This document shows positions 10,165 to 57,530 of a stretch of 64,000 nt of DNA, piece after piece (the first letter of the stretch is position 1; every line of letters begins with the position of its first letter). Below the pieces are notes generated by a model that saw only the letters and a program-made list of their open reading frames with translations, did not search any database and was not told the origin of the DNA. The stretch is from a virus (lineage: Duplodnaviria; Caudoviricetes): the IMG/VR virus record IMGVR_UViG_3300023047_000002. One strand, 5' to 3'. Both the position numbers and the translations under genes were made by a program.

Positions 10165-11622
10165 CTAATAACCCTTGATTTCACCACGAACGAGGAGTTC
10201 AGGACGGAGCATCTTATAAGCCCACATACTGATGAAGCCTGATTCGACAGTGAACGTATTTCTAGTCAACCAGTCTGTATGCATGATCGGTAAGTAGTCT
10301 GCGAGCAGTGCACAACTGTTCTCTAATATACTCTTATGACCAACTAAGTACTCGTTTTCACGAATATAAGGTGAACAAATAATCTTGAGTGAGTTATCAA
10401 GAACACCTGCAACGTAAGGACCGTTAGGATTCTCAACATAGTTCGGTTCGAAACGAGGACGACCAATGTTCATAAGAACGTTGAGACCTTCAATACCGAC
10501 AACCGCCCAGTTACCACGGAATTTGTAGCTCTTCTGGTAAATCTTGTTGGCACATTTCTGAAGCTCACCGCAGAAGCTCTCATCGTGTTCACGCTGTGAA
10601 ATGTAATTCGTGTTGGTGCGATCCCACATTGTGCGGTTACCGGCCTGACGCAGAAGGTTGTCAATAACCTCATTGTCACGTTCCTGTTTCATTTCCATTG
10701 TGCAGTTGTCAATAAGGGTCTTCTGAAGGTCAATACCGAAGCTGTTCTGATACATGTAACCTGCATCGAACGAATACTCAACACGGAGTTTGTGAGGAAG
10801 AGCATGAATCGGTTCGTTTCTCATACGGAACACAGGGCGACCAGCCAAAGAAGGAGCAGAACCCAAATCCTGAGTGTAATCAACGAACACACTTGAGAGT
10901 TTGGAAAAAGCATCATTCTCGGATGCAAACATCACAAGACCGCTGTCCGGATTAACTTCGAGGGTACCGGCCTTGAGAAGGTCACTACCGATAGGATAAC
11001 CCTGAGCGTCCAAAGCACGAAGTTCCCATGTGCTCGTGCCTGTTTTGCGAAGTGCATAACGTTTGCTCGAATCACCTGCATCAGTGAAGATAATCTGATT
11101 GTCAGCATCAATGAGCATAGGCATATGTGCAACATGCAATTCGACTTTTCCGCCCACGATCGTAGCGGGTTCACCACAGATACGACCAGAAGCAAAACGG
11201 TTGCGACTTGTGTGATTGACGGAAACGCCAAGGTCGTTAATCATCACGTTGCCCTGGAGATTGTCACCACGGCTGTCACCATAGGTCATTTCCCAGAAAG
11301 TAATCTGACCCTGAGGACTGTCGATAGGCTGCACCCAAATAAGGTCTTCAATAATCGAGGAAGCACTCATCTTGGCAATCATGTTAATCATGTGTTCGGG
11401 GAACCAAGAAATTCCGGACGGCTGAGAAATACCGCTGCGGATGATTCCTTCGTTCACACGTTTCTGACCCTCTTCAAGAACGCGGGCGGCGTTGTTGAAT
11501 GTCAAAAGAAGGGTGTCTTCCTGTGCCGAGGTAAGTTTACCACGAACATCAGTGACTTTCTTAACGTAGGATTCATAATTGCGTTTGAGAATGTTACGAT
11601 CTTCTTTAGTCAAAACTGCCAT
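10165..11622 (-). CDS. gp23: Major capsid protein, T4 gp23-like
   Basis: VQPIDSPQGQITF, HKLRVEYS, GIDL...E...E.D.EVI, GNWAVV and late YLP motifs; strong RBS; follows the prohead protease. Confidence 0.92.
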   Translation of the reverse strand: MAVLTKEDRNILKRNYESYVKKVTDVRGKLTSAQEDTLLLTFNNAARVLEEGQKRVNEGIIRSGISQPSGISWFPEHMINMIAKMSASSIIEDLIWVQPIDSPQGQITFWEMTYGDSRGDNLQGNVMINDLGVSVNHTSRNRFASGRICGEPATIVGGKVELHVAHMPMLIDADNQIIFTDAGDSSKRYALRKTGTSTWELRALDAQGYPIGSDLLKAGTLEVNPDSGLVMFASENDAFSKLSSVFVDYTQDLGSAPSLAGRPVFRMRNEPIHALPHKLRVEYSFDAGYMYQNSFGIDLQKTLIDNCTMEMKQERDNEVIDNLLRQAGNRTMWDRTNTNYISQREHDESFCGELQKCANKIYQKSYKFRGNWAVVGIEGLNVLMNIGRPRFEPNYVENPNGPYVAGVLDNSLKIICSPYIRENEYLVGHKSILENSCALLADYLPIMHTDWLTRNTFTVESGFISMWAYKMLRPELLVRGEIKGY

Positions 11623-11635
11623 AAAAACTCTCCTT

Positions 11636-13165
11636 TCATTTCCCTTTACCGGTAAGGAACACCCCTCGGGCAGGGGCTATTTCGTGAACATCACGCTCAA
11701 AGTTAGATATACTGCGAACACGTCTTTCGTAAGACTTGCCGTTTCCTTTAGTTACTGCATTGTTATCAGCAAGCTCCGTAAGTCGGTCAGCGTCTATTCT
11801 GTATCGTTTCGATAGACGCTGTGTTGTTTCTTGAATGCAATCTTTACCTTCATCAGACATAAGGTCGCTTACGGGCACACGATGACTTTGTTTTTTATTG
11901 TTTACAGCTTCCGTCTTCATCTGTTTATGGTCAAAACGGGTACGTCGAATCTTGCCCGTCGATACCGATTCTACAGCTTCGTCAGTCTTCTTAACTGAAA
12001 CTTTCTGTAAAGAAGACTCACTTACACGTTTTACGATACACTGTGAACGCTTGTAAAGAGAATCAAGTTTACGTGCAAGAGACTCTGCTTTACATGCAAG
12101 CTCTGAATACCGTTCAAGGTAATGTGCCTGATAAATGTCTCTCTCAATACCGGAACGCAAACTTTCGTTACTACGCTTCAAGAACGCTTCATTTGCCTGT
12201 AAAGTTTCAACCTTTTCAGTGAGCGTCTCAATGGTTTCACGATAAGCATCAATATCCTGCTCCATACGGGCAATACGCATACCGTCCGTTTCCTTCTCAG
12301 ACGCGTGAGAGACAGACTCAAAGGCTTTACATGAACCAGAAGCATCCGTAGCTTTATCAGACGAAGACATAATAGCATCAATGCTGAGCTTTTTCGTGTT
12401 ATGGTTTGTTTCATCCTTGCGGTTCAGCGTAAGTGCGTTCACACCATTACTCTTACGGATAACAGAGTTTACTGCATCATCTGTACGTTTTTCAAGTTCC
12501 TGTGCCATATCACGCATACGGCTTTCAAAAGCAGGAATCTTTAATGCGGACAATGCCGCAACATTGCTTCTAAGCTCGCTTGTCGTCATAGACTCAAGCG
12601 ATTTGCTTTCCTGTACCTTTTCAAGGTGTGCGCACTTAAACCCAGGGTCTGGAACTGCATCGAACGTGATTAAGTCGTACTCAGTTTCCGACATCACTTC
12701 CGTATTGCCTTCCATTTTACTTTCTGCAAGAGCACGTGCTGAAATACCGATTTTGCTGCCGTAATCAATAAGCGTTTTAAGAATACGCCCTACCGGCGTG
12801 TCAAGAATAGCGAATCTTCCAAAAACGAGATGGTCGCTGTTCTCTGGGATCCAGATACGTTCCACAGACAAAGCAACCTCAGGGTATGCGATGTCAACAC
12901 GTGTCTCCGGATGTCCACCCTCGCCAAGCATACACTTATTCTTAATGGCCTCTTTGACCGGCGGATAATTGATTATCCTGTCCTCGATCAGCTTTCGGGA
13001 GTAGATGCGGTTGTTTTGGTTGACTTTTCCGAATTCCATGCAAGGCCCTTCCACGATGCATAAAGCATTGGAAGATTTGCCGGAACCCTTCTCGTCAACA
13101 CGCCGCATTTCACTCACGAGCGATTCCGTGACAAGACGTTTTGCTTGTGTTGTCTGTACTGGCAT
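11636..13165 (-). CDS. gp21: Prohead core protease (T4 gp21-like) with long C-terminal scaffold-like coiled-coil extension
   Basis: NQNNRIY, LGEGGHP (His), ILDTPVGRIL, IGISAR (Ser), FDAVPDPG (Asp); roughly 320 extra residues with many xES sites. Confidence 0.9.
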   Translation of the reverse strand: MPVQTTQAKRLVTESLVSEMRRVDEKGSGKSSNALCIVEGPCMEFGKVNQNNRIYSRKLIEDRIINYPPVKEAIKNKCMLGEGGHPETRVDIAYPEVALSVERIWIPENSDHLVFGRFAILDTPVGRILKTLIDYGSKIGISARALAESKMEGNTEVMSETEYDLITFDAVPDPGFKCAHLEKVQESKSLESMTTSELRSNVAALSALKIPAFESRMRDMAQELEKRTDDAVNSVIRKSNGVNALTLNRKDETNHNTKKLSIDAIMSSSDKATDASGSCKAFESVSHASEKETDGMRIARMEQDIDAYRETIETLTEKVETLQANEAFLKRSNESLRSGIERDIYQAHYLERYSELACKAESLARKLDSLYKRSQCIVKRVSESSLQKVSVKKTDEAVESVSTGKIRRTRFDHKQMKTEAVNNKKQSHRVPVSDLMSDEGKDCIQETTQRLSKRYRIDADRLTELADNNAVTKGNGKSYERRVRSISNFERDVHEIAPARGVFLTGKGK

Positions 13166-15051: not shown

Positions 15052-15187
15052 TTGAACTAACCAACCTCCTAAAGTCGTGTTGGCTTCAAACTTCAACGAA
15101 CAAGATAATGAACACACGTATGCCTAGTTTCTGTTACATAAAGCATACGAAAAGCAAAACAGTACTAATATTTGAGAGAGTTGAATC

Positions 15188-17698
15188 ATGTCAGAACACA
15201 CAAAGAAGAACAGTCAAACACATACAGTGAAAGAATTTGCAGACACATTAAAGTCTTTCAAACCATTTTATCGCATGAAGACATGCACAATCGAACGAGA
15301 GGTAGAAGACATATACAACGAGGGAATATCCTTTTATTTCAAGGATGCAGACATTAAGCACCCTTACGAATGTGATGGAGTTATCTCAACCACATTCGGA
15401 CACGGAAATTTGCTAAAGATGATAATGGAATACAAGTATAACGAAGACATGAAGCAGAAGTCTGCTATTGCAAAAGTTCTTGTCCAAGTAGTGTTCTACC
15501 TCAAACGATTTGAGGATGCAGGAATGGAACTACCTAACGTAGTTATGGTAGGCGACATCAACGAATGCTTTGTCATGCACTCAAACGAACTTCTTAAATA
15601 CCTTGACTGGAATGTGAACTGGAAGACTGCACCGTCTGAAGCATATAAGAAATGCCCTGAAATGGTGCTTGATATCGTTGAAGACGAATCCATAAATCCC
15701 TACGTCTTCTGGATTGATGAGTCATTCGACTTTAAAGACGTTATCGCGAAAATTCACAACCTTTGTGAGAATGTGAAGCGTTATGTGCGTATCACAGAGC
15801 ATAATATTGCATCCATCTTTGAGTATTTCCGTGATCGTGTTCTGCTTAAAAAAGACGCTTTAAGTGCTAATGAACTGGTGACTGTATTTATCGGTCTGAT
15901 AACAAATGATGAAGCGTACTACCTCCATCCGAAAAAGAAAAACACCCTTATTACGCCTAACGGAAACATACCTGTCAACAGTGCTTCCTTTGTCTCATTC
16001 TTTGACCAGTATGCAAGGGAATACACGCCGCAAGAAAGAATGAACTTCACGGCGATTGCTGACCGTCTGATTGAGGATACAACTAGAAGAAGACAGGGTG
16101 CTTTCTTCACGCCAGTTCGGTTTACAGACTTTGCTCACCGCATGATTGAAAAAGAGTTGGGCGAGAATTGGCGTAATGAATACGTTGTTTACGATTGCTG
16201 TTGGGGAACAGGTGGACTGACAAGGGATTACCGCTTCAAAGAACTCTATTGCTCTACACTGGATAAAGGAGAGCTTGAATTGGGTTCGCGGTATAATCCA
16301 GAGGCAACCAAATGGCAAATGGACTTCTTGAATGACGGAGATGAGTGTTTTGACAAAGGTCTGATAAATGCTTTTGAACAAAACAAGCCTATTGTGTTCT
16401 TCATCAATCCGCCTTATGGAACTGCCTGTACTTATGATAATAAATCTAAAGGTGGAACGAATGATACATCGATTCGTGATAATATGACGGAAACTAAGTT
16501 TGGAGGTAGTGAAAATCTTCAACATCAGTTTATGTATCGCATAACAAAGCTAGTTCAGAAGTATAATCTTACGAATGCGTACTTTGCATTATTCTCTAAT
16601 CCAATCTGGCTATCAGGCGCAAAACAGGGTACGTTCTTGAAAAACTTTACATCACGTTGGGAATGTCTTGATGCTTATTTGTTTCAGGCGAGCCATTTTG
16701 CAGATGTTTCTGATGTTTGGGGTATTAGTCTTACTTTATGGAAATCAAATAGACAGGCAACACCAATTAAGGAATACAAACTAAAATTGATTGATATTCT
16801 TGACGATGGTTCTATTGATGTCATAGGAAGTCATGTTCTCTATAACTCAAGTTACTTTAATAAAGCTAATGATTGGGTTCGTGAACCTGTAAAAAGATTA
16901 AAAAGAACGGATTGTTTTCCACCTGTAACATCAGGATTGACCATTAAAGAGTGCAATATAAGGGCTAGTGGAATTGAAGGTCAGTTAGGGTATTGTTTGA
17001 ATAATGCAAATTCAATTCAAGACAATCAGCAGAAAGTGGCTATGTTTTCAACAACATACGGTAACGGTAACGGTCACGGTATATGTAAAGAGAACTTCAC
17101 CCGATGCACAGCACTGTTCACGGCTAGAAAACTCATTGAAAACACATGGATAAATCACGCAGACGAATATCTTGCACCGAACGAGAGTCATCCTGATTAC
17201 AAACGGTTTGAAGCAGACTCAATCGTGTATTCCCTGTTTGAGAATAAATCAAACCAAACGTCGATGCGTCAAATCACGTACAAAGGAAAGCTCTATGATA
17301 TTCCTAATGAGTTCTTCTGGATGTCTAAAGATACCATGATGGGTTTGGCTAATGAAAATCATGATGACTTCATGTTTAACGATGCACGGACAAGCAAAGA
17401 ACGGTATGTGTTTACGCTCTTGCAGAAGCCGGAGATAGCACAGCACTTATCCGAAACAGCAAAACGTCTTCTCGAACTAGCAACAGAGATGACGGTCAAA
17501 TCAATGAAGTATCGCACCCTGTTTGAATCAGACCATCCAGATTACCATATTCACACATGGGATGCAGGGTATTATCAGTTGAAGAACCTTTGGAAAGAAT
17601 ACCTGCCAGAAGACTTCAAGCGATTCCGCGATCTGTTCAAACAGTTCGGAAACGAATTGCGTCCATTGGTTTATGATTTAGGATTCTTACGTAAATAG
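15188..17698 (+). CDS. Type IIG-like fused restriction endonuclease / N6-adenine methyltransferase
   Basis: N-terminal CDG...MEYK...Q..FY nuclease pattern; GAFFTP (motif X), YDCCWGTG (motif I), FINPPY (motif IV); C-terminal TRD-like region. Confidence 0.8.
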   Translation: MSEHTKKNSQTHTVKEFADTLKSFKPFYRMKTCTIEREVEDIYNEGISFYFKDADIKHPYECDGVISTTFGHGNLLKMIMEYKYNEDMKQKSAIAKVLVQVVFYLKRFEDAGMELPNVVMVGDINECFVMHSNELLKYLDWNVNWKTAPSEAYKKCPEMVLDIVEDESINPYVFWIDESFDFKDVIAKIHNLCENVKRYVRITEHNIASIFEYFRDRVLLKKDALSANELVTVFIGLITNDEAYYLHPKKKNTLITPNGNIPVNSASFVSFFDQYAREYTPQERMNFTAIADRLIEDTTRRRQGAFFTPVRFTDFAHRMIEKELGENWRNEYVVYDCCWGTGGLTRDYRFKELYCSTLDKGELELGSRYNPEATKWQMDFLNDGDECFDKGLINAFEQNKPIVFFINPPYGTACTYDNKSKGGTNDTSIRDNMTETKFGGSENLQHQFMYRITKLVQKYNLTNAYFALFSNPIWLSGAKQGTFLKNFTSRWECLDAYLFQASHFADVSDVWGISLTLWKSNRQATPIKEYKLKLIDILDDGSIDVIGSHVLYNSSYFNKANDWVREPVKRLKRTDCFPPVTSGLTIKECNIRASGIEGQLGYCLNNANSIQDNQQKVAMFSTTYGNGNGHGICKENFTRCTALFTARKLIENTWINHADEYLAPNESHPDYKRFEADSIVYSLFENKSNQTSMRQITYKGKLYDIPNEFFWMSKDTMMGLANENHDDFMFNDARTSKERYVFTLLQKPEIAQHLSETAKRLLELATEMTVKSMKYRTLFESDHPDYHIHTWDAGYYQLKNLWKEYLPEDFKRFRDLFKQFGNELRPLVYDLGFLRK

Positions 17699-23519: not shown

Positions 23520-24545
23520 TCAGTCTTCATCACGAAGCTGCTCAAGCGTCCACTCTTCAAGTATCTGGACAGGCTCGACAACCTTTCCATCAAGAAGGTA
23601 TGACATATCCTCATTCATGCACAAGTCCAAAAGACGTTTTACACCTTTTGATGCCCCATACTGACCGCTTGTGAATGGATCCGCAGTAGAAACGAATTTA
23701 CCTGCTACAGATTTATTTTTTAACGTATCCATAAAGTCTTCATAACCTGAGCCAACGGCGGCTGAGATAAAAGCGTCAGATGCTTTAACCAAAAGAAGGC
23801 GTGATTGGACTTTTGCTTTTGGGTCGTCATGCAGGAAATCCCAGGCATCCTGAAATCCAACCTGCGGTTTGTTAGTCCTAAAGAACCTAAGGTTCGTCAT
23901 GCTTTCATCAGCATCAATGTAGTAATAGCAAAACTCAGCCGACATGCGTGCAGTTTTAAACACAGGGAACATAGCTTTTTCGTGTTCTGCAAAACGTGTA
24001 ATACTCAAGTCATCAATTCCAACGCTTTTACGGTTTACGATATCGGCATTATCACGCCATCGTTTACCATGACCACCCTCACGATTGCTTTCAAGCACTT
24101 CACGTAAATCAGAGTACTGCATGAATGTCAGTGCATGACACATTTCATGTGCCAGCGTGTCACGTAAATCATGCAGTGAATTGAACACCGTATCTTTGCT
24201 AATTGTTATTCCAGTCGAAACAAATCCGATACGTTGATTTACCCATCCATTTTCACGAAGATGGGTCATCGCTGAAAACACAGGAAGATAGCTGAAACAT
24301 CCAAGCGTACCAATACCTATACTGTCATACTTTACCCATTCATCCTTCCAACCGTTAAGTCGGAAATACCCATCGAAATAAAGGTCATCTATATCGTGAA
24401 ACAGATCAACAAGAAACACATCAGTCTTCCAATTTTCCCGGTCGATACGGTTTTTTATACGTCCACGTTTAGGTGGATTTGACTGCTGTGTATCGTCAGA
24501 TTCGTTTCGTTTATTCCGTATTGAATTTCGTTTTCTGATAAGCAT
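23520..24545 (-). CDS. SprT-like zinc metalloprotease with basic leader (probable start MLIRKR)
   Basis: DTLAHEMCHA and GHGKRW SprT signature; leader MLIRKRNSIRNKRNES. Confidence 0.8.
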   Translation of the reverse strand: MLIRKRNSIRNKRNESDDTQQSNPPKRGRIKNRIDRENWKTDVFLVDLFHDIDDLYFDGYFRLNGWKDEWVKYDSIGIGTLGCFSYLPVFSAMTHLRENGWVNQRIGFVSTGITISKDTVFNSLHDLRDTLAHEMCHALTFMQYSDLREVLESNREGGHGKRWRDNADIVNRKSVGIDDLSITRFAEHEKAMFPVFKTARMSAEFCYYYIDADESMTNLRFFRTNKPQVGFQDAWDFLHDDPKAKVQSRLLLVKASDAFISAAVGSGYEDFMDTLKNKSVAGKFVSTADPFTSGQYGASKGVKRLLDLCMNEDMSYLLDGKVVEPVQILEEWTLEQLRDED

Positions 24546-24705
24546 TGAGACTCCCAGCTCGTCGTCTGATAAAACAAACAGATTAAGACAGTATGTTTGA
24601 TTTATAATGATACGCAAACCACACGTTGATTTAGATGGTTTTGTAGTTCACGACAGGATGCATCTTCTTTGTCAAAGCCTATTTAACGCTTTTACGATTT
24701 ACCAT

Positions 24706-24954
24706 AAGCGAGCCGAAAGCCAACGGTCTTTAGACCGTGGGTAAGGCGAACAATATTACCCATAACAAATTATCCTTGAAACAAAAACAGAATTATGTTA
24801 TCTACTTCTAAATTCCTACGGAACATAGGAATACAATGCAAGCGGAGAATAAGTCCTCTGGCAAGCACTCAAAGTCTAAAAAGAGTTTGAAGAAAACTAA
24901 GTCTTGTTCGTTGAAACTTGAAGCCCATTCGCCTTTAGGCGGTGGGTAGTTCAC
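24706..24954 (+). mobile_element. Non-autonomous IS200/IS605-family mini-element: left end, omegaRNA-like scaffold and right end, no ORF
   Basis: Follows CCAT; LE-like hairpin aagccaacggtc-ttta-gaccgtggg; 3' gaagcccattcgcctttaggcggtgggtagttcac typical of tnpB right ends; removal rejoins flanks into tttacga..tcgtaaa inverted repeat. Confidence 0.75.
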
Positions 24955-25046
24955 TCGTAAACAGACAGAAAAAGTTCAGATTTTAATCAACATGGCGTCA
25001 CATAGAACGTAGTATTTAAAACCAAACAATTTTGATGCGTAGAGTG

Positions 25047-25157: not shown

Positions 25158-25255
25158 CACCGGGCTAAATCAGGGTGTGCTATGTCTATCTGATTTAGCC
25201 CGTGGGCTTGCGGACTCTTTGGTCAACTACCCACCCGCTAAATCCTATGGGAGGA
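25158..25255 (-). mobile_element. IS200/IS605-like end remnants (RE-like gggtagttgac abutting LE-like ccgcaagcccacgggctaaatc)
   Basis: 13-bp IR at 25161-25173/25190-25202; near identity to the LE at 35041-35082. Confidence 0.55.
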
Positions 25256-25331: not shown

Positions 25332-28300
25332 CTACACCTCGACAATCCTGACGATCTCTTCAGAGCCGTGTTCGTCATCCACGGGAACAGCTACTCCACA
25401 ATCGAAGAACTCTGCGTCTTCCTCTGTTGTAGTGAACTTCCAAAGAACGGTAAGAATGTCACCCACAGATTCTCCCTCATCCTCCTGAGAATCAACGACG
25501 ACTGCGTCCTGTCCTGTCAAAGGAACAACTATTCTGTTCATAATCCAATATTCCTCAAGTTCTTTAACGTTTATGCAAGCATAATATTCAACAGGTGAAG
25601 ACTCAGAGGCTATTCTGTACATGACCACACTGTCGTTTTCATCAACATACGCTGCATCGACATGAGCGACATTCTGACGGGAATCAAGATATTCAAGAAG
25701 TGCAGCTTCCTCATCGCTACTTAAAGAATCTCCACTCCCATCAGCCTTTGACAGTGGGATAGACATACGCTGTGTACCGAGATAGACATTAAAGTCCGCA
25801 ACGTCTAAGAACGTATTGCTAGAACCCTGTTTGTTTCTGGTAACATCGGCAGAAGGTATGAACACACGAAGTGCTTCCGTACTCTCATTGACATCAGGTG
25901 TCGTCGGATCATCGACGGAAATATGAGAATCAGCATTGTTCATTTCACTACGTGCCATTTCAACGCAGATATAACGGAATCCGTCTTCGTCGCTCACAAC
26001 ACTAAAATCCTCAAATGTCGTATCCTCTTCAAACACATGCAATACAGGTGCATCAGACATATCCCACAGGTAAGCCTTTGCATTTGCGTGAACAGTAACG
26101 GTTTCGTCATTGATGGAGACTGCCTCGGACGGAACCTGTACGATGATACAATTGTCGTCCTTAATCCATGCAGCATGTGTCTGAGTTGCAGATAGAACTA
26201 CCGTAACCTCATAGTATGTATGAATGTCAGAAGGATCTGAGTCATCTACGAGCTTACGTGAAGGAACCATGTACAGGCTATGTGCGATAACAGGGTTTCC
26301 GATATCGTAAAGCAACGGAGAAACAAACGGAGTGTTTGCTTTATGGAACAGCTGTACGTTATGTACTATAGGCTCAGCGATTCGTACAAAACCTTTACGA
26401 AGGTAAAGACCAGAGTAAATACCAGAGTTCTGAGCTATACGGTAGAACACGATTTCTCCGTCCTGCTTGACTGCTTTATCCACATGGAACTCTGTGAACG
26501 CACTGTCAAGGTCTGAAACGGATATGTTGAGCGTTTCATACGATGCAGATGTAGAATAATCACTGTACAGCTGAACCTGCTGATAGCGTGGGAAGACCTG
26601 TAAATCACAGTCTTCAAAAGTTACAGAATGAACAGGTTCAAGGCATTCTTCCAACGCCCATATGATAACGTTCCCAAGTACGTCACCTTGTGACGAGATT
26701 CCAACCTCAAATCCGTAATAACGAGACCCTGAATGAGAAACCATATATTTTGGCGTAAGCCGTGTGTTCGGAATAACGAAGGAATAAGCAAGAACATTAA
26801 CGCCGCCTGTTCCATCGAGAACCATAGGCTGCTTCAAAGAAACACGTGTACTTCTGTACGCATCAGTCACAACACCAGGTGCGATATAGACACAGTTCGG
26901 ATTGTCCAAATTCTTTAACATAACCGTGTCAGGACTTACGGACGAAAGTTCACTCTCCTCAAGGGTCTCACCATTAAACATGTACGTCATCGGAGCAAGA
27001 GCGGCTGCTTTATCCTTAAGGTAAAACTGAGGGAGTGAACTACCTTGGTAAATCTCATTGATGACAGAGAACTGACTTGCGATACGTGAAACATTGACAG
27101 AATGAATAACACCTGTGTCTTCATTAACAGAAAGATGAATGACACCACCTGCACATACACAGGATTTTGTAAACGTCACGAGATCTCCTGGGTGGAACAC
27201 AGGAGTGTAGTAATCGAATGCATCGCTTTCAGCAATGTCTCCGTCAGTCGAGTCGATTCCTGCTACAGTTGATGTATCATCAGGGTTGCCGATGAACACA
27301 GCCCTCAAGTTCTCATTAGCTACCTCAACCACATAAATGTTGTCGGTGGATGGTTGAAGATTCACATCTTCAACGATACTGATGTAAACTTCATTACCTT
27401 CAATTTCTGCAAGCAAAATAGTGTCCTCTCCTTGGAGGTTGTTACTGCTGCTACCAAGAAGTTTGAGGAAGAATCCGTGAGGATCTCGTTCTTCTTGCTG
27501 TGCGCTGGACAGACCTTCAAGAGACGAAGACTGCCATATCTTTATCGGAGAGGGCGTGCCACTTGTAAGAGATGGATTTTCATGCTCACTTACAACTGTA
27601 GGATCTTTCGTGACCCACACATCCTTGGGCTCGCTGAAACGAATGAATGAGAGTTCCTCTGTAGCTTCAAGGATTTCTTCCGGATAAGCGTAACCATCAT
27701 CAGAGATGTAATAAACAGACTCACTTGCGAAACTTGGAGAATGGATTGAAATTCTAAGTTTCTTGACGAAATTAGGAACTGTGCCTACAGTCACTTCTTT
27801 AGTTCCGTATGTATCAATGGGCAATACTCCATCACTTCCGCAAGCAGTAACGGTCTTGACAAAGTAACTGCACACTGTATGTGTGTCAGAACCGCCTTGA
27901 CCTTCGATCACCTTTAATGCATTACTTCCAAGCTCTTCCTCTACAAAACGATACTCGTCATTTCCAGTTTCATCAGCAAATCGATACATTCGAACCATGA
28001 CGCCGTGATCAGGCCCATAATTACCTTCGTAAGAAATTACATTCATGTAATCATTTGTACGTCTCACAAGATAACGACCGCCATCAGGAGAGACATGCTC
28101 AAATAACGTTTCCGAAGGCTGATAAACATTGGTATGAATATTTTGAACACCTTGAATAACACGGTTCCATACGTTCAGAGCTGTAAAAACACTGTTGACG
28201 GGAACATTGATCTCGCTTTCATTCCAATGAAGATGTGCAGGTACAGTACCTTCCATGACAATGTACGCGTAATTACCTCCACCTGCATTAAAATAAATCT

Positions 28301-30704
28301 CATTCTGAACAGGAATCCTGGCTGATTTACGTTCATCATTAGAACCCCAATTAGAACCCCAGAAGCACAGAGCTCCATCGTCATCTATTATCCATCGCTT
28401 TGACTCAACAGTCTCACAATAAAGCGTACCCTCTTCACCGGAAAGAAGACCTTCCTGAGTTATCTGCACTGTAACGGAGTCTGTCGAAGTCCATGTGGTT
28501 GATACGTCACCGTCAAGATATGGAACACACTGTTTGTACGTAATAGAACTACCGAGTATCTTACAGTCTATACCGACCTGACGTGTCACTTTCTCATACA
28601 GAGTTTCATTCGTAAACTTACCTGAATCGATACCGATACCCCAACGGCTTTCAAACAAGACGCCAAAAGAATTAGTAAGGTCAACAGTGGATCCGGCAGG
28701 AATTACTTCTGCTTCGGAAGCACCTGGGAACGGAGTGCGTTTTAACGAAATGTCATTAGGCGTAAAGTTCTTGACTTTATCACCTTCTGCCAATGCATAC
28801 ATTATAGGTATAATGACATCAACATACCGTGCAATGTACGTAACGCCTTCTTCCTCGTCGCCTTCGAGCAGCTTGACATAACGATAAGATCCATGGACAC
28901 ACTGACCAAGAATCTTAAACACGTGATCCCCTGTAATGGCATGATCATTATCAAGGATAGCATCATCTGTGCTTGAAACATAATCATCTACAACAAAAGC
29001 AACCACAGGAATAAGGCTTTCACCTCGTAAGGAACACAGATATGAACCATTAAACTGAAGCATGTTATCGCTGTCAGCGACGAAAGTTCCAAAGTCAGGT
29101 ATGAATTCCAAGCGTATACTGACGCCTAACATACCGATTGGGCATTTGCATAAGGTACCGTTGTGCGTAAACTGAAAAGTGTCTACATTCTTTCTCACAA
29201 GCTGAACATTGTCACCGTAGTGAAGAACGTATGGCTCCTCGTCTTCCACGGTTAAAGCAGACACCTGAAGCATAGCGTATGCATTTCCTGTAAGCTCTTC
29301 CTCAACCAGTCCGAGATCCTGCTTAACCGTGATGTAAACGCATTCTTTAACACGCACATTATGACCATCAACAACAGTAGGCTCGATTTCGGAGAAGATG
29401 TAGTTTCCATCAGATGCACGGCCATTTACCCAACCACGACGCGTAGATACACCAGCAGATTCCTCCAAAGAAATCGGTGTATCTGACGTAATATGGAACC
29501 ATGCCCTTCCGCTCTTGTCATACACTACCATATCTGCAGGATACACGGAACCGACAGAAAGTTTACCGAAAGTACGTCCCTCGTTATTTTCAAGGCTGAA
29601 CGATGGACGTAGCATAACAGCTTGAGTAACGGTAACCGTCGTATTCTGTAATGCAATACATGGATTATCATTTACAAAAATAAACGCATCATAGTTCGTG
29701 ATCGTTTCTTTCACGTCAGGAGTAAAAATGTTGATCTCTGGAACGATGCCGTTTACGTCCATAGACTCAACTTTCCAACGAGATCCGATGCTTGAGAGTG
29801 CACCCTCAATTTCTACACGCTGCGTAAGCTCAATATACTGTAAAGGCTTTGAAGGGTACACATTGTAATCAACATGACACCCGTCAATGGTCACAATTAC
29901 CGTACCGCCGTCATTAGACAATGAAAGTTCGAGATAGTTCTTCCACTGACGTGAGACTTCATGCGTCGTATGAGCCTCAAGTATCGTAACATTCTCATTG
30001 CCATTGACGAGACAATGCTTTTGAGTGTCCCCAACGGTAAGCTGTGCATTGACAGGAACCGCGTTAGCATAGAATTCATCAGGGACTTCACTTACGTAAC
30101 CCACGATAACGTCATTGCTGACGAGGACGTATTTCTGAGCGTCCGGAGAATCCTCAAGCGTAATAATACTATGCCCGTTATAAGATCCAACTACCCATGC
30201 AACGATATTACCTCCGGTAGTTGTAGAAACATCACCTGCCTTGTAAACATTAATATCTCCGTCTGTCTTAAACAGTTCCTGGATATGTTGTGCTGATGGA
30301 CGGAGCTGAACTTTCTCTGAGTGATCATTGATAGTGAACTCTGGCTCACATTCTTCTATCTTCAAAAGCAAGCTGATATCGCCATAACGCTTGTACTGTG
30401 AAACTCCGCTTCGGAGGAAACGTATCTTCTCATCGCCTGTATTAATATTTTTGCATTTGGTGAGTGATGTGTCAACTGTAGCACGTGGAACTACTGAGCT
30501 ATCTGTGATCTCACGTGCATGTTCCTTCATGCTGTCTAAATAAGTTGCACTGAGGAATACATAACGCTTCTGCCAAATCTGCTCAACGATATCCTTATCA
30601 GGATTAAAAGAGTCCATGATTGAACCAAGAGTTCCTGATGTAACGCTGTACAGTGTCTGGTTGCCAGTGGCAGGATTCTGACCAATAAAGAAAATCGTAC
30701 TCAT
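25332..30704 (-). CDS. Very large acidic tail/baseplate-associated protein with SH3b-like segments
   Basis: 1790 aa, beta-rich, in the tail block; segments such as MLRPSFS..GKLSVG..WFHI and LKRTPFPGASEAEVIPAGS. Confidence 0.55.
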   Translation of the reverse strand: MSTIFFIGQNPATGNQTLYSVTSGTLGSIMDSFNPDKDIVEQIWQKRYVFLSATYLDSMKEHAREITDSSVVPRATVDTSLTKCKNINTGDEKIRFLRSGVSQYKRYGDISLLLKIEECEPEFTINDHSEKVQLRPSAQHIQELFKTDGDINVYKAGDVSTTTGGNIVAWVVGSYNGHSIITLEDSPDAQKYVLVSNDVIVGYVSEVPDEFYANAVPVNAQLTVGDTQKHCLVNGNENVTILEAHTTHEVSRQWKNYLELSLSNDGGTVIVTIDGCHVDYNVYPSKPLQYIELTQRVEIEGALSSIGSRWKVESMDVNGIVPEINIFTPDVKETITNYDAFIFVNDNPCIALQNTTVTVTQAVMLRPSFSLENNEGRTFGKLSVGSVYPADMVVYDKSGRAWFHITSDTPISLEESAGVSTRRGWVNGRASDGNYIFSEIEPTVVDGHNVRVKECVYITVKQDLGLVEEELTGNAYAMLQVSALTVEDEEPYVLHYGDNVQLVRKNVDTFQFTHNGTLCKCPIGMLGVSIRLEFIPDFGTFVADSDNMLQFNGSYLCSLRGESLIPVVAFVVDDYVSSTDDAILDNDHAITGDHVFKILGQCVHGSYRYVKLLEGDEEEGVTYIARYVDVIIPIMYALAEGDKVKNFTPNDISLKRTPFPGASEAEVIPAGSTVDLTNSFGVLFESRWGIGIDSGKFTNETLYEKVTRQVGIDCKILGSSITYKQCVPYLDGDVSTTWTSTDSVTVQITQEGLLSGEEGTLYCETVESKRWIIDDDGALCFWGSNWGSNDERKSARIPVQNEIYFNAGGGNYAYIVMEGTVPAHLHWNESEINVPVNSVFTALNVWNRVIQGVQNIHTNVYQPSETLFEHVSPDGGRYLVRRTNDYMNVISYEGNYGPDHGVMVRMYRFADETGNDEYRFVEEELGSNALKVIEGQGGSDTHTVCSYFVKTVTACGSDGVLPIDTYGTKEVTVGTVPNFVKKLRISIHSPSFASESVYYISDDGYAYPEEILEATEELSFIRFSEPKDVWVTKDPTVVSEHENPSLTSGTPSPIKIWQSSSLEGLSSAQQEERDPHGFFLKLLGSSSNNLQGEDTILLAEIEGNEVYISIVEDVNLQPSTDNIYVVEVANENLRAVFIGNPDDTSTVAGIDSTDGDIAESDAFDYYTPVFHPGDLVTFTKSCVCAGGVIHLSVNEDTGVIHSVNVSRIASQFSVINEIYQGSSLPQFYLKDKAAALAPMTYMFNGETLEESELSSVSPDTVMLKNLDNPNCVYIAPGVVTDAYRSTRVSLKQPMVLDGTGGVNVLAYSFVIPNTRLTPKYMVSHSGSRYYGFEVGISSQGDVLGNVIIWALEECLEPVHSVTFEDCDLQVFPRYQQVQLYSDYSTSASYETLNISVSDLDSAFTEFHVDKAVKQDGEIVFYRIAQNSGIYSGLYLRKGFVRIAEPIVHNVQLFHKANTPFVSPLLYDIGNPVIAHSLYMVPSRKLVDDSDPSDIHTYYEVTVVLSATQTHAAWIKDDNCIIVQVPSEAVSINDETVTVHANAKAYLWDMSDAPVLHVFEEDTTFEDFSVVSDEDGFRYICVEMARSEMNNADSHISVDDPTTPDVNESTEALRVFIPSADVTRNKQGSSNTFLDVADFNVYLGTQRMSIPLSKADGSGDSLSSDEEAALLEYLDSRQNVAHVDAAYVDENDSVVMYRIASESSPVEYYACINVKELEEYWIMNRIVVPLTGQDAVVVDSQEDEGESVGDILTVLWKFTTTEEDAEFFDCGVAVPVDDEHGSEEIVRIVEV

Positions 30705-30740: not shown

Positions 30741-33700
30741 TTAGTCACCTTCGCCACTGACAGGGGCGGAGTTTGATTCATATTTTGTCTGACCAATAAG
30801 AGTGATCTGAACACAACGGTCAAGAACATCTATGGACAAATCAGAAGCACTCATTGTTTGGATTGCTTGAGGCAGCTTTATATTGCCATCAATGAGATTC
30901 ATGCTGAAACCTTCCTGTGCATCAATAATGTCCTGACTAAGGATATTACGTACTTCATCTGAGATCTTTATCGCAACAGCCGTACTCGGAAGATAACACT
31001 TGATCTCGTCAGCCGTGTCTGATGCCTTATACTGTGCAGACAAAACGGACTTGCCCTTTACAATTTTACAAACAAAAGTTCCAATGGTTACTGTCACAGG
31101 GAAGACAAGAGAACTGTCAGGCATGACACCGTTATAATAAGTAACTGGATTTTCAGCTGATGCAATAATAGTGTAAACCTCATCTTCTTCAGGTGGGTCA
31201 ACAAGCGACAACGTAATATCTGACAGTCTGATATAATACTCCGGAACAGTGTCTATACGAGCAAATCCATTTGCACTTGTTCCACTGACAGGAAGATAAG
31301 GAACTCTGGACAAATCAATAGTTCCAATTGGAGCTTCTGTGCTTGAAGGATGTTCGTACTTGTTCACAACATCTGTTCCTGTAGCATAGAGCTTAATACT
31401 TGTAAGTGTAGAATCTTCATACGGATCAAGAACGGAAGGCGTGATGGTCATCAATGCCTTTGAACACCAAAAGATGCTTCCGTCATACGAAGCCATAGAA
31501 GGAAATGCGTCTCTTACGGAATCTTTAAGCGTAAATCCAATTCCCAACTTATCACGCGTCTCGTAATACTTGTCGATATACTCCGGATGCTCCATCAAAA
31601 TACGCGATGTTTTGTCGAAAGAATCAGAGCTTGGGTGACGATAAACAAGCTCATCGATCACAGAGAAAGGCTTAACGCGAATGTACGATGAATGATCTGA
31701 ATCATCAATGAGAGACACAACGTTCTTCTGAACGACACAGTATGGATTCAAAGAGTCATAAAGCTCAGCAGAGAGAGTAGGATCTGGATAGAAATAAAAT
31801 GCAGTCATCCCGTCATCGAAAGCATCTTTCAACAGACCTGGGAACCCGTAATCAACATTTGGAGACCCTACAAACTGAAATGCAAGAGCATTACCAAACA
31901 AAGCATAATGAATGTCATTCCAGTTTTCAGGCTCAAATGAAGCATGGACAGGAACATTGTTGAACCGAACGTCATGTGTTTTGGAATTGAATGTTTCCAT
32001 CAAGCTGTCAAGTATAAGACCAGGCTCGCTATCTTTAACGAAGATATACCCACTGTCCTGAGCAATGTCCGCAATTCCGTACCACCCGTTTCGAGTATGG
32101 ATATCTACAATCACATCGGTTGAAGACGAAAGAGGTGAACCGTGTTTAAACTCATCATTCTCATCATTCCAGACATACAGCTGTGCACCTGCTGGAATAC
32201 GTGCGTATCTCTTAAATTCATCATACGCACCAATCTCCTTAACGTACTCACGAATATTTGTTGACCATGTATAAGCAGGTACTGGTGTATCTGTAGGATT
32301 ACCATCAAGATCCACGAGGTTGCCATGTTCATCCACTGCAATAACACGATACCACCAATAACCGCTAAATGATTCTGAACTACGACCGTAAACAGCGATA
32401 CGTACACCTTCAGGTAATACAGTTGGCAGTGCGTGCTCAGCAGTTCCGTCAGTGTAAACCGCACCATACATGACAGTTTCACGAACCGTAATGCCATCAA
32501 GATTAAAGGGCAAAAACACCATAGGTGTTTTGTCATCTGTCGAGATTTCAGGAACCTCCATTGGCATAACATCGCATATATAAGCCTTTACCGTAATGAT
32601 ATCCGGCTGCAACGGTGTTTCCTGTGCATCTGTCTGTACCCAACTGTTCAAAGGCAGGGTAAGGTCTATATCGCATCCATAGCTTCCCGTATGTGGATTA
32701 TGTTTCTTTCCTGTGTCGAAAGGAACAATGCATCCCAATGTTTTATGCTGTGAAACTGGTGCATGGTTAATTCCTGTGTAACCATCAATTTCAACAACGA
32801 CAGAAGAGAACGGTCGTAGTTTGAGGTTGTCTGCACATGACACAAGCAAATGTGCGTCCATATTCGAGCTTGACGGATTCGTGATGTTGTTTTTCAATTG
32901 GCCACAAAGTTCTGCCTTGAATCCATCAGAGCACTGAATGGAATTGAGTAACCAATTCTTCGTTCCATGTGTATAATGTGCAGCCGAAAGAATGCGAACA
33001 GTGAATAACGGAGCACCACCGATCATTCCACTGTCGCCTATAAAGGCAAACGGAACTATGGCATTCTTCTGTTCACCATTATCGTTCCAAAACACTTTAC
33101 GCGAGAGTGCGATCTTTTGTTTCGCATCCTCGGCGTTAGATTCTTTTTCAAGACCGATGTTATAGAACTGACTCTCATTGGCAAGCGTAAGACCTTCATT
33201 TGAAACGAAAGTCATGCGTCGTGCGCTGTCAACATAGAAAGAACTGTCCCAGGCTTCATCAGCTTTAAAGTACGCAGTACGAGCTACAGATATTTGCTGT
33301 TCATAAATACCTTTAAGGACACGTAAAAGTTTTGTACGTGAAGCATTCTGTAACTGGATGCCGTCAACTTCTTTATCGCCAAGAGCATTGTATTTTAGTT
33401 TTAACGCAGCACACTCACTATTCGTGTAAACCGCTTTAAAATCCGAAGGATCAATGGCAATTTTAGGAAACAACGCATTGATTTCGTCGATGCTTATTGT
33501 GTTCGGGAAAATTGCGTACTGTCTTGTGAGTTCAAATGGAATGTTCGGGTCAGTAGAGATAATACGACTGTATCCCTGCCACAGAATTGCGGCGAGCTCA
33601 TCCGTAAGTCCTTCAACAACACGTACCTTATCCTGACCGATGTTTTCAACCGTATCAGGGTCTCGGTCATCACAGATTACAAAGTAATCTGAAATCTTTG

Positions 33701-34676
33701 GTTTTCTGGCAACAGTGCCTGATGCTATTTTCCTGCACTCATCGAACGTCTTGTCCAACTGAGTAAGGACAATCTTTCCATCCTGCGTTGTAATCTCAAA
33801 TGCTTTGACATTTGCTTTGTACTGCTCCATTGCTGCTTCATCAATAGAGGCAAGCTCTTCTATGACAGAATCAAGACCAGACACAAAAACATAATGTGTT
33901 GTTCCATTGCTTTCATTTAAGACATAGACAGTTCGACAAGGGCGTTGCACTGCAGACGGGTCCACCCAAATCTTCTCGCCAAACACATACTGAGGATTGT
34001 GAACCGTGACTGCGTCGTCGTTTCCACAAGAAGATCCAAGATTTGCTTGATCAATAAGGTTTCCGTCAGCATCAAACAGCTGCAAGTCTTTCGTATTTTC
34101 GTCAAACTTAATCGTCAGCTTCTGAATGTTTGCACCTGCCTGAAGATTCTCCAAATCCTGCAAGGTGGCAACGCCATTTTCAATGCCGATAATCGATGAG
34201 AACCCATTGGTAAGAACGACTGAGAACGTAACATACAACGAGTTCTTACCATCACCTTGCAAAACGGATGTGTTATTGTTACTTGCAACAGCAAACAGAA
34301 CATTCTCTAATGGTGTTCCGTCTTCAATAACGATATCACCATGTGCATCGACAACAGAAGCAAACAGATAAGCTGTACGAACAATCAGTTCAGATTCAAC
34401 GTCTGTGTTGAACTTGCCGACAGCACGGACAGACAGGTTACCATTATTACCGATGTAAGATTTTATCGGCGTCACAGACCACATTACACCATGACGGAAT
34501 CTGTCCGGCTCACTAACGGCCTGTTCATAGGTCAAACCACCACCGTTAGGCATCTGACTGGGTGCAACGGTACCCTGTTCAACGAACATGGACGTGAATG
34601 AGAGGGAGCATCCGTCCTTCACTTTCTTCAGGAGATAAAATCCCTGATTCGTTATGTTTTGACGATCAAATGCCAT
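30741..34676 (-). CDS. Tail fibre/baseplate protein, paralog of 49205-51859, with extra C-terminal SH3-like repeats
   Basis: N-terminal ITNQG tail-collar-like motif; shares DLQLFD..LIDQANL, QKIALSR, FAFIGDSG..GGAPLFTV and LNSWVQT..PDII with the paralog. Confidence 0.65.
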   Translation of the reverse strand: MAFDRQNITNQGFYLLKKVKDGCSLSFTSMFVEQGTVAPSQMPNGGGLTYEQAVSEPDRFRHGVMWSVTPIKSYIGNNGNLSVRAVGKFNTDVESELIVRTAYLFASVVDAHGDIVIEDGTPLENVLFAVASNNNTSVLQGDGKNSLYVTFSVVLTNGFSSIIGIENGVATLQDLENLQAGANIQKLTIKFDENTKDLQLFDADGNLIDQANLGSSCGNDDAVTVHNPQYVFGEKIWVDPSAVQRPCRTVYVLNESNGTTHYVFVSGLDSVIEELASIDEAAMEQYKANVKAFEITTQDGKIVLTQLDKTFDECRKIASGTVARKPKISDYFVICDDRDPDTVENIGQDKVRVVEGLTDELAAILWQGYSRIISTDPNIPFELTRQYAIFPNTISIDEINALFPKIAIDPSDFKAVYTNSECAALKLKYNALGDKEVDGIQLQNASRTKLLRVLKGIYEQQISVARTAYFKADEAWDSSFYVDSARRMTFVSNEGLTLANESQFYNIGLEKESNAEDAKQKIALSRKVFWNDNGEQKNAIVPFAFIGDSGMIGGAPLFTVRILSAAHYTHGTKNWLLNSIQCSDGFKAELCGQLKNNITNPSSSNMDAHLLVSCADNLKLRPFSSVVVEIDGYTGINHAPVSQHKTLGCIVPFDTGKKHNPHTGSYGCDIDLTLPLNSWVQTDAQETPLQPDIITVKAYICDVMPMEVPEISTDDKTPMVFLPFNLDGITVRETVMYGAVYTDGTAEHALPTVLPEGVRIAVYGRSSESFSGYWWYRVIAVDEHGNLVDLDGNPTDTPVPAYTWSTNIREYVKEIGAYDEFKRYARIPAGAQLYVWNDENDEFKHGSPLSSSTDVIVDIHTRNGWYGIADIAQDSGYIFVKDSEPGLILDSLMETFNSKTHDVRFNNVPVHASFEPENWNDIHYALFGNALAFQFVGSPNVDYGFPGLLKDAFDDGMTAFYFYPDPTLSAELYDSLNPYCVVQKNVVSLIDDSDHSSYIRVKPFSVIDELVYRHPSSDSFDKTSRILMEHPEYIDKYYETRDKLGIGFTLKDSVRDAFPSMASYDGSIFWCSKALMTITPSVLDPYEDSTLTSIKLYATGTDVVNKYEHPSSTEAPIGTIDLSRVPYLPVSGTSANGFARIDTVPEYYIRLSDITLSLVDPPEEDEVYTIIASAENPVTYYNGVMPDSSLVFPVTVTIGTFVCKIVKGKSVLSAQYKASDTADEIKCYLPSTAVAIKISDEVRNILSQDIIDAQEGFSMNLIDGNIKLPQAIQTMSASDLSIDVLDRCVQITLIGQTKYESNSAPVSGEGD

Positions 34677-34762
34677 AACATCCTCCATTTGAAATTACGT
34701 ACAGCACAATTGTGATGTAGCACAAACACTTTATATTTTGATAGGCTTGAGCGAACGGCTGC

Positions 34763-35082
34763 GTGAACTACCCACCGCATTTAAGATGTTGGACTCTGAT
34801 GCAAGCACATCTCAACTAACATAAAAACTATGAGTGTGATGTGCAGTAAGTCAGCTATCCAACACGTTCCGTATGTTCCACACTTTATTCAATTATAAGG
34901 TTATAGACAAGTCTAGCACAACAAATATCCGGTGGACTTTATTTGCCTGTCGAAAACTTGGACACATACGATACTTATATGCATTTAACATTGAGGTATT
35001 TCCGATCCATTTTTATTCGTCATTGTTACAAATGGCTCGCATTACCCACGGGATTTAGCACGTGGGCTTGCGGATCGCTTTT
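34763..35082 (-). mobile_element. Second non-autonomous IS200/IS605-family mini-element, omegaRNA-like
   Basis: Minus strand: CCAT, then LE aagcgatccgcaagcccacg..ccgtgggtaatgcga (matches 24706 LE), ending gcggtgggtagttcac; no tnpA/tnpB ORF. Confidence 0.7.
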
Positions 35083-35148
35083 ATGGCCAATCGTATTGAT
35101 AACACAACCTGAAACTTATTTAAACAATCCATTTCACACTTGAATATG

Positions 35149-44208: not shown

Positions 44209-44258
44209 ACTAAAATCAACTACCCACCAGCTAAAGCGAGTGGGTAGTTGATTTTAGT
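44209..44258. repeat. Perfect 19-bp palindrome built from IS200/IS605 right-end-like sequence
   Basis: actaaaatcaactacccac-N12-gtgggtagttgattttagt. Confidence 0.75.
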
Positions 44259-51859: not shown

Positions 51860-52073
51860 AGCATACCTCATACAAAATAAAGTACACGTACCCAACACAT
51901 ATAAGTACCAACCATAACAAACAGACAAGGACAAATATGGCTGATTTATAACTGCTCACATACAAAAATTAATCCTTTTGCTAAAATAACAAAAGAATTA
52001 CGCGAATACCCAAACATGAATCTAGGTAAACACCTAAAGAACGGTAGTAAGATACCTTATTTGATACGGAGCC

Positions 52074-52112
52074 TGCAGGAAGCTCACCGCCTTTAGACGA
52101 TTAGCAGTTCAC
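52074..52112 (+). mobile_element. Degenerate IS200/IS605 (tnpB-type) right end
   Basis: gcaggaagctcaccgcctttagacgattagcagttcac. Confidence 0.55.
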
Positions 52113-57324: not shown

Positions 57325-57530
57325 AACAACCACCTATATGCTTTGAAAGCATATCGAAGAAACACACGGTTCATGAACCTGCAAGTGTATCACGGTATGC
57401 ATTGTAACTGTTTGGGAACACAAAGTAATTGATAGAAAATAAGGTATGAAGTAGCTTAAAATTTGTAAAAGCACCTACACACAAACCAAACTCATGCATA
57501 GGTGCTTGTGTAATCATTTACGTGTAATGA

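What the first reader, a model, noticed from the sequence alone, without database searches (positions are those of the whole stretch)
24706..24954. Protein-less TnpB omegaRNA-like cassette with both IS ends and an internal promoter-like stretch
Seen: a 249-bp element after CCAT, with an LE hairpin, an AT-rich ttgaaa...tatgttatct stretch, a scaffold (cctacggaacatagg...gcaagcggag...ttcgttgaaacttgaagccc) and the RE gggtagttcac. Excising it rejoins tttacga-tttaccat-tcgtaaa, an inverted repeat, which supports the boundaries. Established: TnpB guide RNAs derive from IS200/IS605 right ends and take their guide from the flanking DNA. Inference: an orphan guide-RNA gene (predicted guide tcgtaaacagacagaaaaag) that could program TnpB/TldR in trans, target insertion-free sibling phages, or act as a decoy.
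Basis: partly seen in the sequence, partly recalled or inferred. Interest (0 to 1): 0.72.

Follow-up and report, generated by a model that had tools for sequence, protein, structure and literature searches.

The report
Protein-less TnpB guide-RNA mini-transposon in phage
A 252-bp leftover of an IS200/IS605 jumping element in a large uncultured phage has lost its TnpB nuclease gene but keeps both hairpin ends and the guide-RNA scaffold; elements of this kind are already known, and this copy looks slightly decayed and probably idle.

Summary
Window 24703-24954 (+) is a protein-less IS200/IS605-family element.

**Parent element.** A 2.6-kb metagenome contig (L135) carries a full-length relative.
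- Its left end is 89% identical to the element's left end.
- Its tnpB 3' end, omegaRNA and right end are 86% identical over 146 nt.
- The 1.3 kb between them encodes a TnpB.

So the element is an internal-deletion derivative, PATE-like.

**Guide-RNA scaffold.** Two covariance models built only from TnpB-linked right ends hit it at 37 and 38.5 bits. TnpB-linked copies score 46-51 bits.

**Anatomy.** It follows IS608: TTAC target, AAAG guide and hairpin on the left; GAAG guide, hairpin and TCAC on the right.

**Not supported.**
- The internal promoter.
- The inverted-repeat argument for the boundaries.
- Any activity.

**Signs of decay or idleness.**
- Six of 41 scaffold pairs are broken, with no compensatory change.
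- The 64-kb window has no tnpB, and no tnpA was found in it.
- The only TnpB seen in a related phage belongs to another clade.
- No empty-site allele was found.

PATEs that encode omegaRNAs are described by Meers et al. 2023. This scan had already noted similar cassettes twice more in this genome and in another phage. Verdict: new member of a known kind, modest interest.

The parts
24699..24702 (+). TTAC, the likely target/left cleavage tetranucleotide, which would also be the TAM of a cognate TnpB
   Evidence: Sequence. L135 has the same TTAC|CAT junction. IS608 uses TTAC 19 nt from the hairpin foot (PMC3201880); here the gap is 17 nt.
24703..24753 (+). Left end: AAAG guide tetranucleotide (24716-24719) and subterminal hairpin (24720-24741)
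   Evidence: 89% identical to the L135 left end. ssDNA fold -9 kcal/mol, z -2.4. One compensatory stem change relative to L135 (G-C to T-A), read from the alignment.
24754..24809 (+).
   Evidence: No sigma-70-like site by the scan. No significant similarity to L135 (score 14 against a shuffle mean of 16).
24810..24954 (+). TnpB omegaRNA scaffold: GGAAC-loop hairpin 24812-24832, central stem about 24839-24920, terminal hairpin 24924-24946
   Evidence: 86% identical over 146 nt to the tnpB 3' end, omegaRNA and right end of L135. CM R1 37.1 bits, E 7e-5. CM R2 38.5 bits, E 3e-9. MFE -38.1 kcal/mol, z -2.0. 35 of 41 L135 pairs are kept.
24920..24954 (+). Right end: GAAG guide tetranucleotide (24920-24923), hairpin (24924-24946), TCAC cleavage site (24951-24954)
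   Evidence: The 14-mer GGTGGGTAGTTCAC ends the right end of dozens of TnpB elements in viral contigs. ssDNA fold z -2.8.
24955..24970 (+). Predicted guide template (TCGTAAACAGACAGAA), taken from the flank
   Evidence: It lies directly 3' of the right-end boundary. This is established for TnpB omegaRNAs (PMC8612924, my own knowledge, paper not read here; PMC10055086). No second copy in the window. There are 18 matches in IMG/VR, none with TTAC or homologous flanks, so they read as chance matches.
24961..25030 (+). Remnant of the 3' end of a 461-aa accessory gene that is intact in the related phage
   Evidence: 76% identical to L133 4485-4558, the end of ORF L133 4495-5880 (-).

Best explanation
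The element (24703-24954, + strand) is a non-autonomous, internally deleted IS200/IS605-family element of the tnpB-only type, that is, a PATE-like mini-transposon. Its ancestor was a roughly 1.5-kb element like the one on metagenome contig L135: left end, tnpB, then an omegaRNA overlapping the tnpB 3' end and the right end. A deletion removed tnpB and left about 50 nt of left end, 56 nt of AT-rich filler and the 145-nt scaffold plus right end.

Shown:
- Homology of both ends and of the scaffold to a TnpB-bearing element.
- IS608-like cleavage and guide tetranucleotides and hairpins.
- Absence of any ORF inside the element and of tnpB in the window.

Inferred:
- A Y1 TnpA supplied in trans could still excise it from the top strand and insert it 3' of TTAC.
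- If it is transcribed, its RNA would carry the guide TCGTAAACAGACAGAA. [quoted passage not shown]

I think this copy is now a slowly decaying relic and not a working guide-RNA gene. Identity as a PATE-like omegaRNA-bearing element: about 0.9. Currently functional as a guide-RNA gene: about 0.15.
For: - A metagenome scan found L135. Left end 89%, scaffold plus right end 86%. The ORF between them is a TnpB (Pfam OrfB_IS605 plus Cas12f1-like TNB).
- Nine ORFs tested that end 5-89 nt before the same right-end 14-mer (seven of them within 16 nt) are all TnpB.
- CMs built without the element or L135 hit it at 37.1 bits (R1) and 38.5 bits (R2). The R2 structure has 41 pairs, 19 of them covarying.
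- The IS608-type anatomy can be read off the sequence and matches PMC3201880.
- No tnpB in the window by tblastn with nine TnpBs.
- Signs of decay: 6 of 41 pairs broken with 0 compensatory changes; MFE -38 kcal/mol, z -2.0, against -49.6 and z -5.7 for L135; weaker end hairpins; no promoter.
- Meers et al. state that PATEs often encode omegaRNAs acted on in trans (PMC10055086).
Against: - The scaffold is still recognised at 38.5 bits, against 46-51 bits for TnpB-linked copies.
- Substitutions are rarer in paired positions (7 of 82) than in unpaired ones (10 of 61), so some constraint cannot be excluded.
- An earlier, unchecked note places a TnpB elsewhere in the same roughly 243-kb genome. I could not read it, so a partner in the same genome is not ruled out.
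- The host's promoter type is unknown, so the negative sigma-70 scan is weak evidence.
Confidence: 0.85

Rival explanations
1. It is an active, trans-acting guide-RNA gene. The cassette is transcribed. A TnpB encoded elsewhere in the phage or in the host loads the RNA and cuts element-free sibling genomes at TTAC+TCGTAAACAGACAGAA. The cassette and its neighbourhood are then copied in during co-infection, making a two-part homing drive.
For: - Scaffold architecture is retained: GGAAC hairpin, central stem and terminal hairpin.
- Paired positions changed less often than unpaired ones.
- The literature expects PATE omegaRNAs to work in trans.
- The guide lies in the remnant of an accessory gene that is intact in a relative.
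Against: - No tnpB in 64 kb.
- The relative's TnpB is a different clade: 26 bits to the L135 TnpB and no R1 or R2 match next to it.
- Six broken pairs and none compensated.
- No promoter.
- The relative's allele has neither TTAC nor the target, matching 9 of 16 guide positions (my count on the alignment).
- No joint allele in IMG/VR.
Confidence: 0.12
2. It is kept as a structural or recombination joint and not as a transposon or RNA gene. In this phage lineage, IS605-end hairpins mark the borders of accessory-gene cassettes and may promote gene gain and loss or act as transcript-end hairpins.
For: - The 714-bp gap that holds the element corresponds to 5.5 kb with five extra ORFs in the related phage.
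- One cassette border there coincides with a right-end-like hairpin (L133 4450-4481).
- A right-end/left-end-like piece (25161-25245) sits where the relative has a 762-aa gene.
Against: This element is a complete two-ended copy with a full scaffold, which relic status explains more simply. No terminator-like T-run follows its hairpins on either strand. The association is correlative.
Confidence: 0.08
3. It is an IscB-type (HEARO) omegaRNA on the minus strand, or a chance set of hairpins.
For: A weak Rfam HEARO match at 24792-24954 (-) whose 5' end coincides with the element boundary.
Against: 15 bits against a gathering score of 83, E 1.6. The plus-strand homology to a TnpB element is overwhelming.
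Confidence: 0.01

Closest known systems
PATE-like non-autonomous IS200/IS605 elements that encode omegaRNAs (Geobacillus stearothermophilus; Meers et al. 2023, PMC10055086)
   Same: No protein-coding gene, conserved left and right ends with hairpins, an omegaRNA at the right end, and dependence on TnpA and TnpB supplied in trans.
   Different: It sits in a roughly 243-kb uncultured phage, not in a bacterial chromosome. It is single-copy for its subfamily in the data I could reach. The scaffold is somewhat decayed. No partner TnpA or TnpB was identified.
Full-length tnpB-only element on metagenome contig QXGG01315369.1 (L135)
   Same: Left end 89% identical, scaffold plus right end 86% identical, the same TTAC|CAT left junction and the same ...GGTGGGTAGTTCAC right terminus.
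   Different: L135 carries a TnpB of up to 472 aa (ORF 389-1807) and a perfectly paired scaffold (-49.6 kcal/mol, z -5.7). The window element lacks tnpB and has six broken pairs.
IS608 of Helicobacter pylori (PMC3201880)
   Same: TTAC target 5' of the left end, AAAG guide at the hairpin foot, comparable spacing (17 nt here against 19 nt on the left, 8 against 10 on the right), and a tetranucleotide guide 5' of the right hairpin.
   Different: The right cleavage site is TCAC with guide GAAG, where IS608 has TCAA. There is no tnpA and no tnpB.
ISDra2 TnpB reRNA/omegaRNA (Karvelis et al. 2021, PMC8612924)
   Same: The guide RNA is templated by the right end, with the guide read from the flanking DNA.
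   Different: No sequence-level relation was tested here, and the TAM is different (TTGAT for ISDra2, from my own knowledge).

Membership tests
IS200/IS605 family, non-autonomous PATE-like element | Subterminal hairpins at both ends on the same strand | tested here: met
   Direct repeat of the hairpin module at 24715-24743 and 24920-24948. ssDNA folds z -2.4 and -2.8.
IS200/IS605 family, non-autonomous PATE-like element | Cleavage tetranucleotides (CL, CR) and guide tetranucleotides (GL, GR) at IS608-like positions | tested here: met
   TTAC 24699-24702 and AAAG 24716-24719; GAAG 24920-23 and TCAC 24951-54. Compared with the IS608 facts in PMC3201880. The match is by analogy, not by assay.
IS200/IS605 family, non-autonomous PATE-like element | Both ends homologous to those of a protein-coding element of the family | tested here: met
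   L135: left end 89%, right end and scaffold 86%. The ORF between them is a TnpB.
IS200/IS605 family, non-autonomous PATE-like element | No protein-coding gene inside | tested here: met
   Only a 48-aa minus-strand frame overlaps it. No TnpB similarity in the window.
IS200/IS605 family, non-autonomous PATE-like element | A Y1 TnpA available in trans | tested here: inconclusive
   No Y1_Tnp hit among 10 small window ORFs.
IS200/IS605 family, non-autonomous PATE-like element | Evidence of mobility: an empty site or further copies | tested here: not met
   The relative's allele is diverged and lacks TTAC. No joint allele in IMG/VR. The 24-mer from the interior occurs in one metagenome contig only.
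TnpB omegaRNA (reRNA) | Lies at the right end and stops at the transposon boundary, so that the guide is read from the flank | tested here: met
   The CM and BLAST matches end exactly at 24954.
TnpB omegaRNA (reRNA) | Sequence and structure match scaffolds physically linked to tnpB | tested here: met
   R1 37.1 bits and R2 38.5 bits; TnpB-linked copies score 46-51 bits. 35 of 41 L135 pairs are kept.
TnpB omegaRNA (reRNA) | Match to a curated Rfam family | tested here: not met
   No hit at gathering score. Nothing relevant at E up to 10. Whether Rfam 15 has a model of this subfamily is not known.
TnpB omegaRNA (reRNA) | Transcribed and bound by a cognate TnpB | not testable with these tools
   No promoter by the consensus scan. 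No tnpB in the window. No RNA data.
IscB omegaRNA (HEARO, RF02033) | Reaches the family's gathering score | tested here: not met
   15 bits against 83.

The most novel reading that the evidence does not exclude
The cassette is a working half of a two-part RNA-guided homing system in a jumbo phage. It supplies only the guide RNA. A TnpB encoded tens of kilobases away, or by the host, supplies the nuclease. Sibling phages that lack the cassette are cut at TTAC+TCGTAAACAGACAGAA and converted during co-infection.
Probability: 0.1. Interest if true: 0.7.

Novelty: new member of a known kind. Interest (0 to 1): 0.3.

Why it matters
The element shows to the base how a tnpB-only IS605-family element shrinks to a guide-RNA-only mini-element inside a large phage genome, with the full-length relative in hand.

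If such cassettes were expressed and used in trans, phages would carry split RNA-guided homing systems. As it stands, this copy adds one example to a known class. It also documents that this phage lineage is littered with IS605-family ends, which is useful context for the TnpB and hairpin-cassette findings elsewhere in the same genome.

Tried and rejected
- Rfam at gathering score and at E up to 10 gave no TnpB-type family, only a 15-bit HEARO match on the wrong strand. Rejected.
- The phage collection gave no match to the region or the element with megablast or blastn.
The reported TnpB 33.7 kb upstream of the window could therefore not be read.
- The element's interior 33-mer is absent from IMG/VR. 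A 22-mer of the scaffold is absent from IMG/VR and from GTDB genomes.
- No close relatives of the L135 TnpB turned up in genome contigs or viral contigs.
- The promoter idea failed both the sigma-70 scan and the homology test against L135.
- Empty site: the guide 16-mer in IMG/VR gave only chance matches. The related phage has a diverged, TTAC-less site. The left-flank homology on its own is not significant (z about 1.4).
- MAFFT misaligned the L095/L116 subgroup (A4), so R2 was built from the 12 consistent rows (A5).

Full report
**Observation.**
- A left-end hairpin, ccaACGGTCtttaGACCGTggg.
- An AT-rich 56 nt.
- A hairpin with a GGAAC loop, attcctaCGGAACAtaggaat.
- A right end, GAAGCCCAttCGCCtttaGGCGgTGGGTAGTTCAC, that stops at 24954.

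The two ends are direct repeats of one hairpin module (29 nt, 72%). Both fold as ssDNA hairpins better than shuffles do (z -2.4 and -2.8).

**Context.**
- The window belongs to a large uncultured T4-like phage. It has a Gp23-type capsid protein at 10165-11622, a prohead protease at 11636-13165 and a tail assembly chaperone at 52135-52578.
- Earlier notes of this scan put the genome at about 243 kb.
- No whole genome is held.
- The phage collection has no relative at the DNA level.
- The element lies in the 714-bp gap between a 1790-aa ORF (25332-30704, -) and a SprT-like gene (23520-24617, -; Pfam). It is on the opposite strand to both.

**What the right end is.**
- The terminal 14-mer GGTGGGTAGTTCAC occurs in more than 118 IMG/VR stretches. 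In most of them it is preceded by the same GAAGCCCA...hairpin context.
- ORFs of about 390-450 aa end 5-16 nt before that terminus in many of these loci. Nine ORFs tested, ending 5-89 nt before it, are all TnpB (OrfB_IS605 plus Cas12f1-like TNB).

So this is the right end of a widespread TnpB element group.

**The parent type.** One scan of metagenome contigs with a 24-mer from the interior found a single contig, QXGG01315369.1 (L135, 2568 bp).
- L135 220-274 matches window 24699-24753 at 89%.
- L135 1593-1733 matches window 24810-24954 at 86% (E 3e-41).
- Between them lies an ORF (389-1807) that is a TnpB. It is 44-45% identical to the TnpBs of L116, L127 and L095.
- Both copies are preceded by TTACCAT and end in GGTGGGTAGTTCAC.

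The window element is therefore an internal-deletion derivative of an L135-type, tnpB-only IS200/IS605 element. It keeps about 50 nt of left end and the 145-nt scaffold plus right end. The 56 nt in between show no significant similarity to L135.

**Guide-RNA scaffold.** I built two covariance models from right ends that are physically linked to tnpB. Neither includes the window or L135.
- R1: 22 sequences of the commonest clade (A2). It hits 24832-24954 at 37.1 bits, E 7e-5.
- R2: 12 sequences of the clade nearest to L135 (A5). Its structure has 41 pairs, 19 of them with compensatory changes.

R2 bit scores:

| Sequence | Bits |
|---|---|
| TnpB-linked L125, L116, L127, L095 | 46-51 |
| L135 | 47.1 |
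| Window element | 38.5 (E 3e-9) |

The GGAAC-loop hairpin, whose stem covaries between clades, is intact at 24812-24832. This is visible in the sequences.

The scaffold is less well kept than that of L135.
- MFE is -38.1 kcal/mol (z -2.0), against -49.6 (z -5.7) for L135.
- Of the 41 pairs in L135's fold, 35 survive and 6 are broken. None of the 7 changes at paired positions is compensatory.
- Changes are nevertheless rarer at paired positions (7 of 82) than at unpaired ones (10 of 61).

Rfam holds no family that matches. A 15-bit HEARO match on the minus strand is noise.

**Boundaries.** IS608 cleaves 3' of TTAC, 19 nt from the foot of the left hairpin. Its AAAG guide lies just 5' of the foot. 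Its right cleavage site lies 10 nt 3' of the right hairpin (PMC3201880).

| Feature | Window coordinates |
|---|---|
| TTAC | 24699-24702 |
| AAAG | 24716-24719 |
| Left hairpin foot | 24720 (17 nt after TTAC) |
| GAAG | 24920-24923 |
| Right hairpin | 24924-24946 |
| TCAC | 24951-24954 |

L135 is consistent with this reading.
- A second element in the window (35085..34763, -) starts TGGC|CAT.
I checked the positions here myself.

**Relatives and the empty site.** One IMG/VR contig (IMGVR_UViG_3300028888_000085, L133) is a relative. Its SprT-like protein is 88% identical.
- Where the window has 714 bp, L133 has about 5.5 kb with five more ORFs.
- The element sits in what remains of the 3' end of a 461-aa gene that is intact in L133. 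Window 24961-25030 matches the end of that gene at 76%.
- With the element removed in silico, the alignment runs across the junction. At the insertion point the relative reads ...TTTACGCAGGAATCGAAAGAATCCACAGACAG. It has no TTAC there and matches only 9 of 16 guide positions (my count on the alignment). The left-flank part alone is not significant.
- This is an uninterrupted but diverged allele. It is neither a clean empty site nor a predicted target.
- The guide 16-mer has 18 matches in IMG/VR, all with unrelated flanks. It has no second copy in the window.

**Partners.**
- tblastn with nine TnpBs finds nothing in the window.
- Ten small ORFs have no Y1 transposase domain.
- The relative contig has one TnpB (L134 73-1752). 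It shares only a 26-bit zinc-ribbon match with the L135 TnpB. No R1 or R2 match lies next to it.

**Expression.**
- The sigma-70 scan finds no site inside the element. It finds one unremarkable site just outside, at 24669-24698, within the number expected by chance.
- The host's promoter type is unknown.

**Comparison with known systems.** Meers et al. describe minimal protein-less, PATE-like IS elements. [quoted passage not shown] A 2026 review lists transposon homing into co-infecting phages as a concept (PMC13565253).
- The element meets the structural criteria of a PATE-like IS200/IS605 derivative and of a TnpB omegaRNA.
- Mobility, expression and a partner nuclease are not shown.

**Verdict.** This is a real, well-delimited, protein-less IS605-family mini-element with a recognisable TnpB guide-RNA scaffold, and a new member of a known kind. 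It is most likely a slowly decaying relic. A working trans-acting guide-RNA gene remains possible at roughly one in eight to ten. This scan has already noted the same kind of cassette twice more in this genome (e1-5665173, e1-5665157) and in another phage (e1-5340322).

Noticed in passing
window 34763-35085 (-): A second two-ended element. Its left end is 85% identical to the L135 left end after TGGC|CAT, and it has the same GGTGGGTAGTTCAC terminus and a GGAAC-loop hairpin. Its scaffold is poorly kept (R2 10.6 bits, fold z -0.8). About 30 nt just inside its left end match, by eye about 26 of 30, the sequence right after the TnpB stop in the related phage (L134 about 1765-1800). I cannot explain that match.
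   Followed up: partly
window 25161-25245 (-): A right-end-like piece (GGTGGGTAGTTGAC) abuts a left-end-like piece (CAAAGAGTCCGCAAGCCCACGGGCTAAATC), like a right-end/left-end junction. It sits exactly where the related phage carries a 762-aa gene (L133 621-2909).
   Followed up: partly
window 15052-15191 (-) and 51970-52112 (+): Decayed right-end/scaffold remnants in two other intergenic gaps (R1 17.3 and 11.3 bits; R2 21.5 bits for 52031-52112). The first keeps a covarying CCAAC/GTTGG version of the terminal helix.
   Followed up: partly
window 44215-44252: A near-perfect palindrome whose two arms both contain GTGGGTAGTTGA, the right-end terminal motif in both orientations.
   Followed up: no
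L133 3047-4484 and 4450-4481: Relative to the window, the related phage has three extra small ORFs. The edge of that block coincides with the terminus of a right-end-like hairpin (R2 22 bits), which suggests cassette gain or loss at IS-end hairpins.
   Followed up: partly
loci L001-L132 (IMG/VR): The same right-end terminus, GAAGCCCA...GGTGGGTAGTTCAC, is shared by at least two TnpB clades that are only about 25% identical in protein (with and without the HTH_OrfB domain). Both may rely on one type of TnpA.
   Followed up: partly
L134 73-1752: The related phage's TnpB lies in a 559-aa open frame, and its HTH domain starts only at residue 196. It may be fused in frame to an upstream gene, or the start may be miscalled.
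   Followed up: no
window 25332-30704, 30741-34688, 52594-57333 (-): Very large ORFs (1790, 1315 and 1579 aa) with no PHROGs match. The first two also have no Pfam match; the third was not scanned against Pfam.
   Followed up: no
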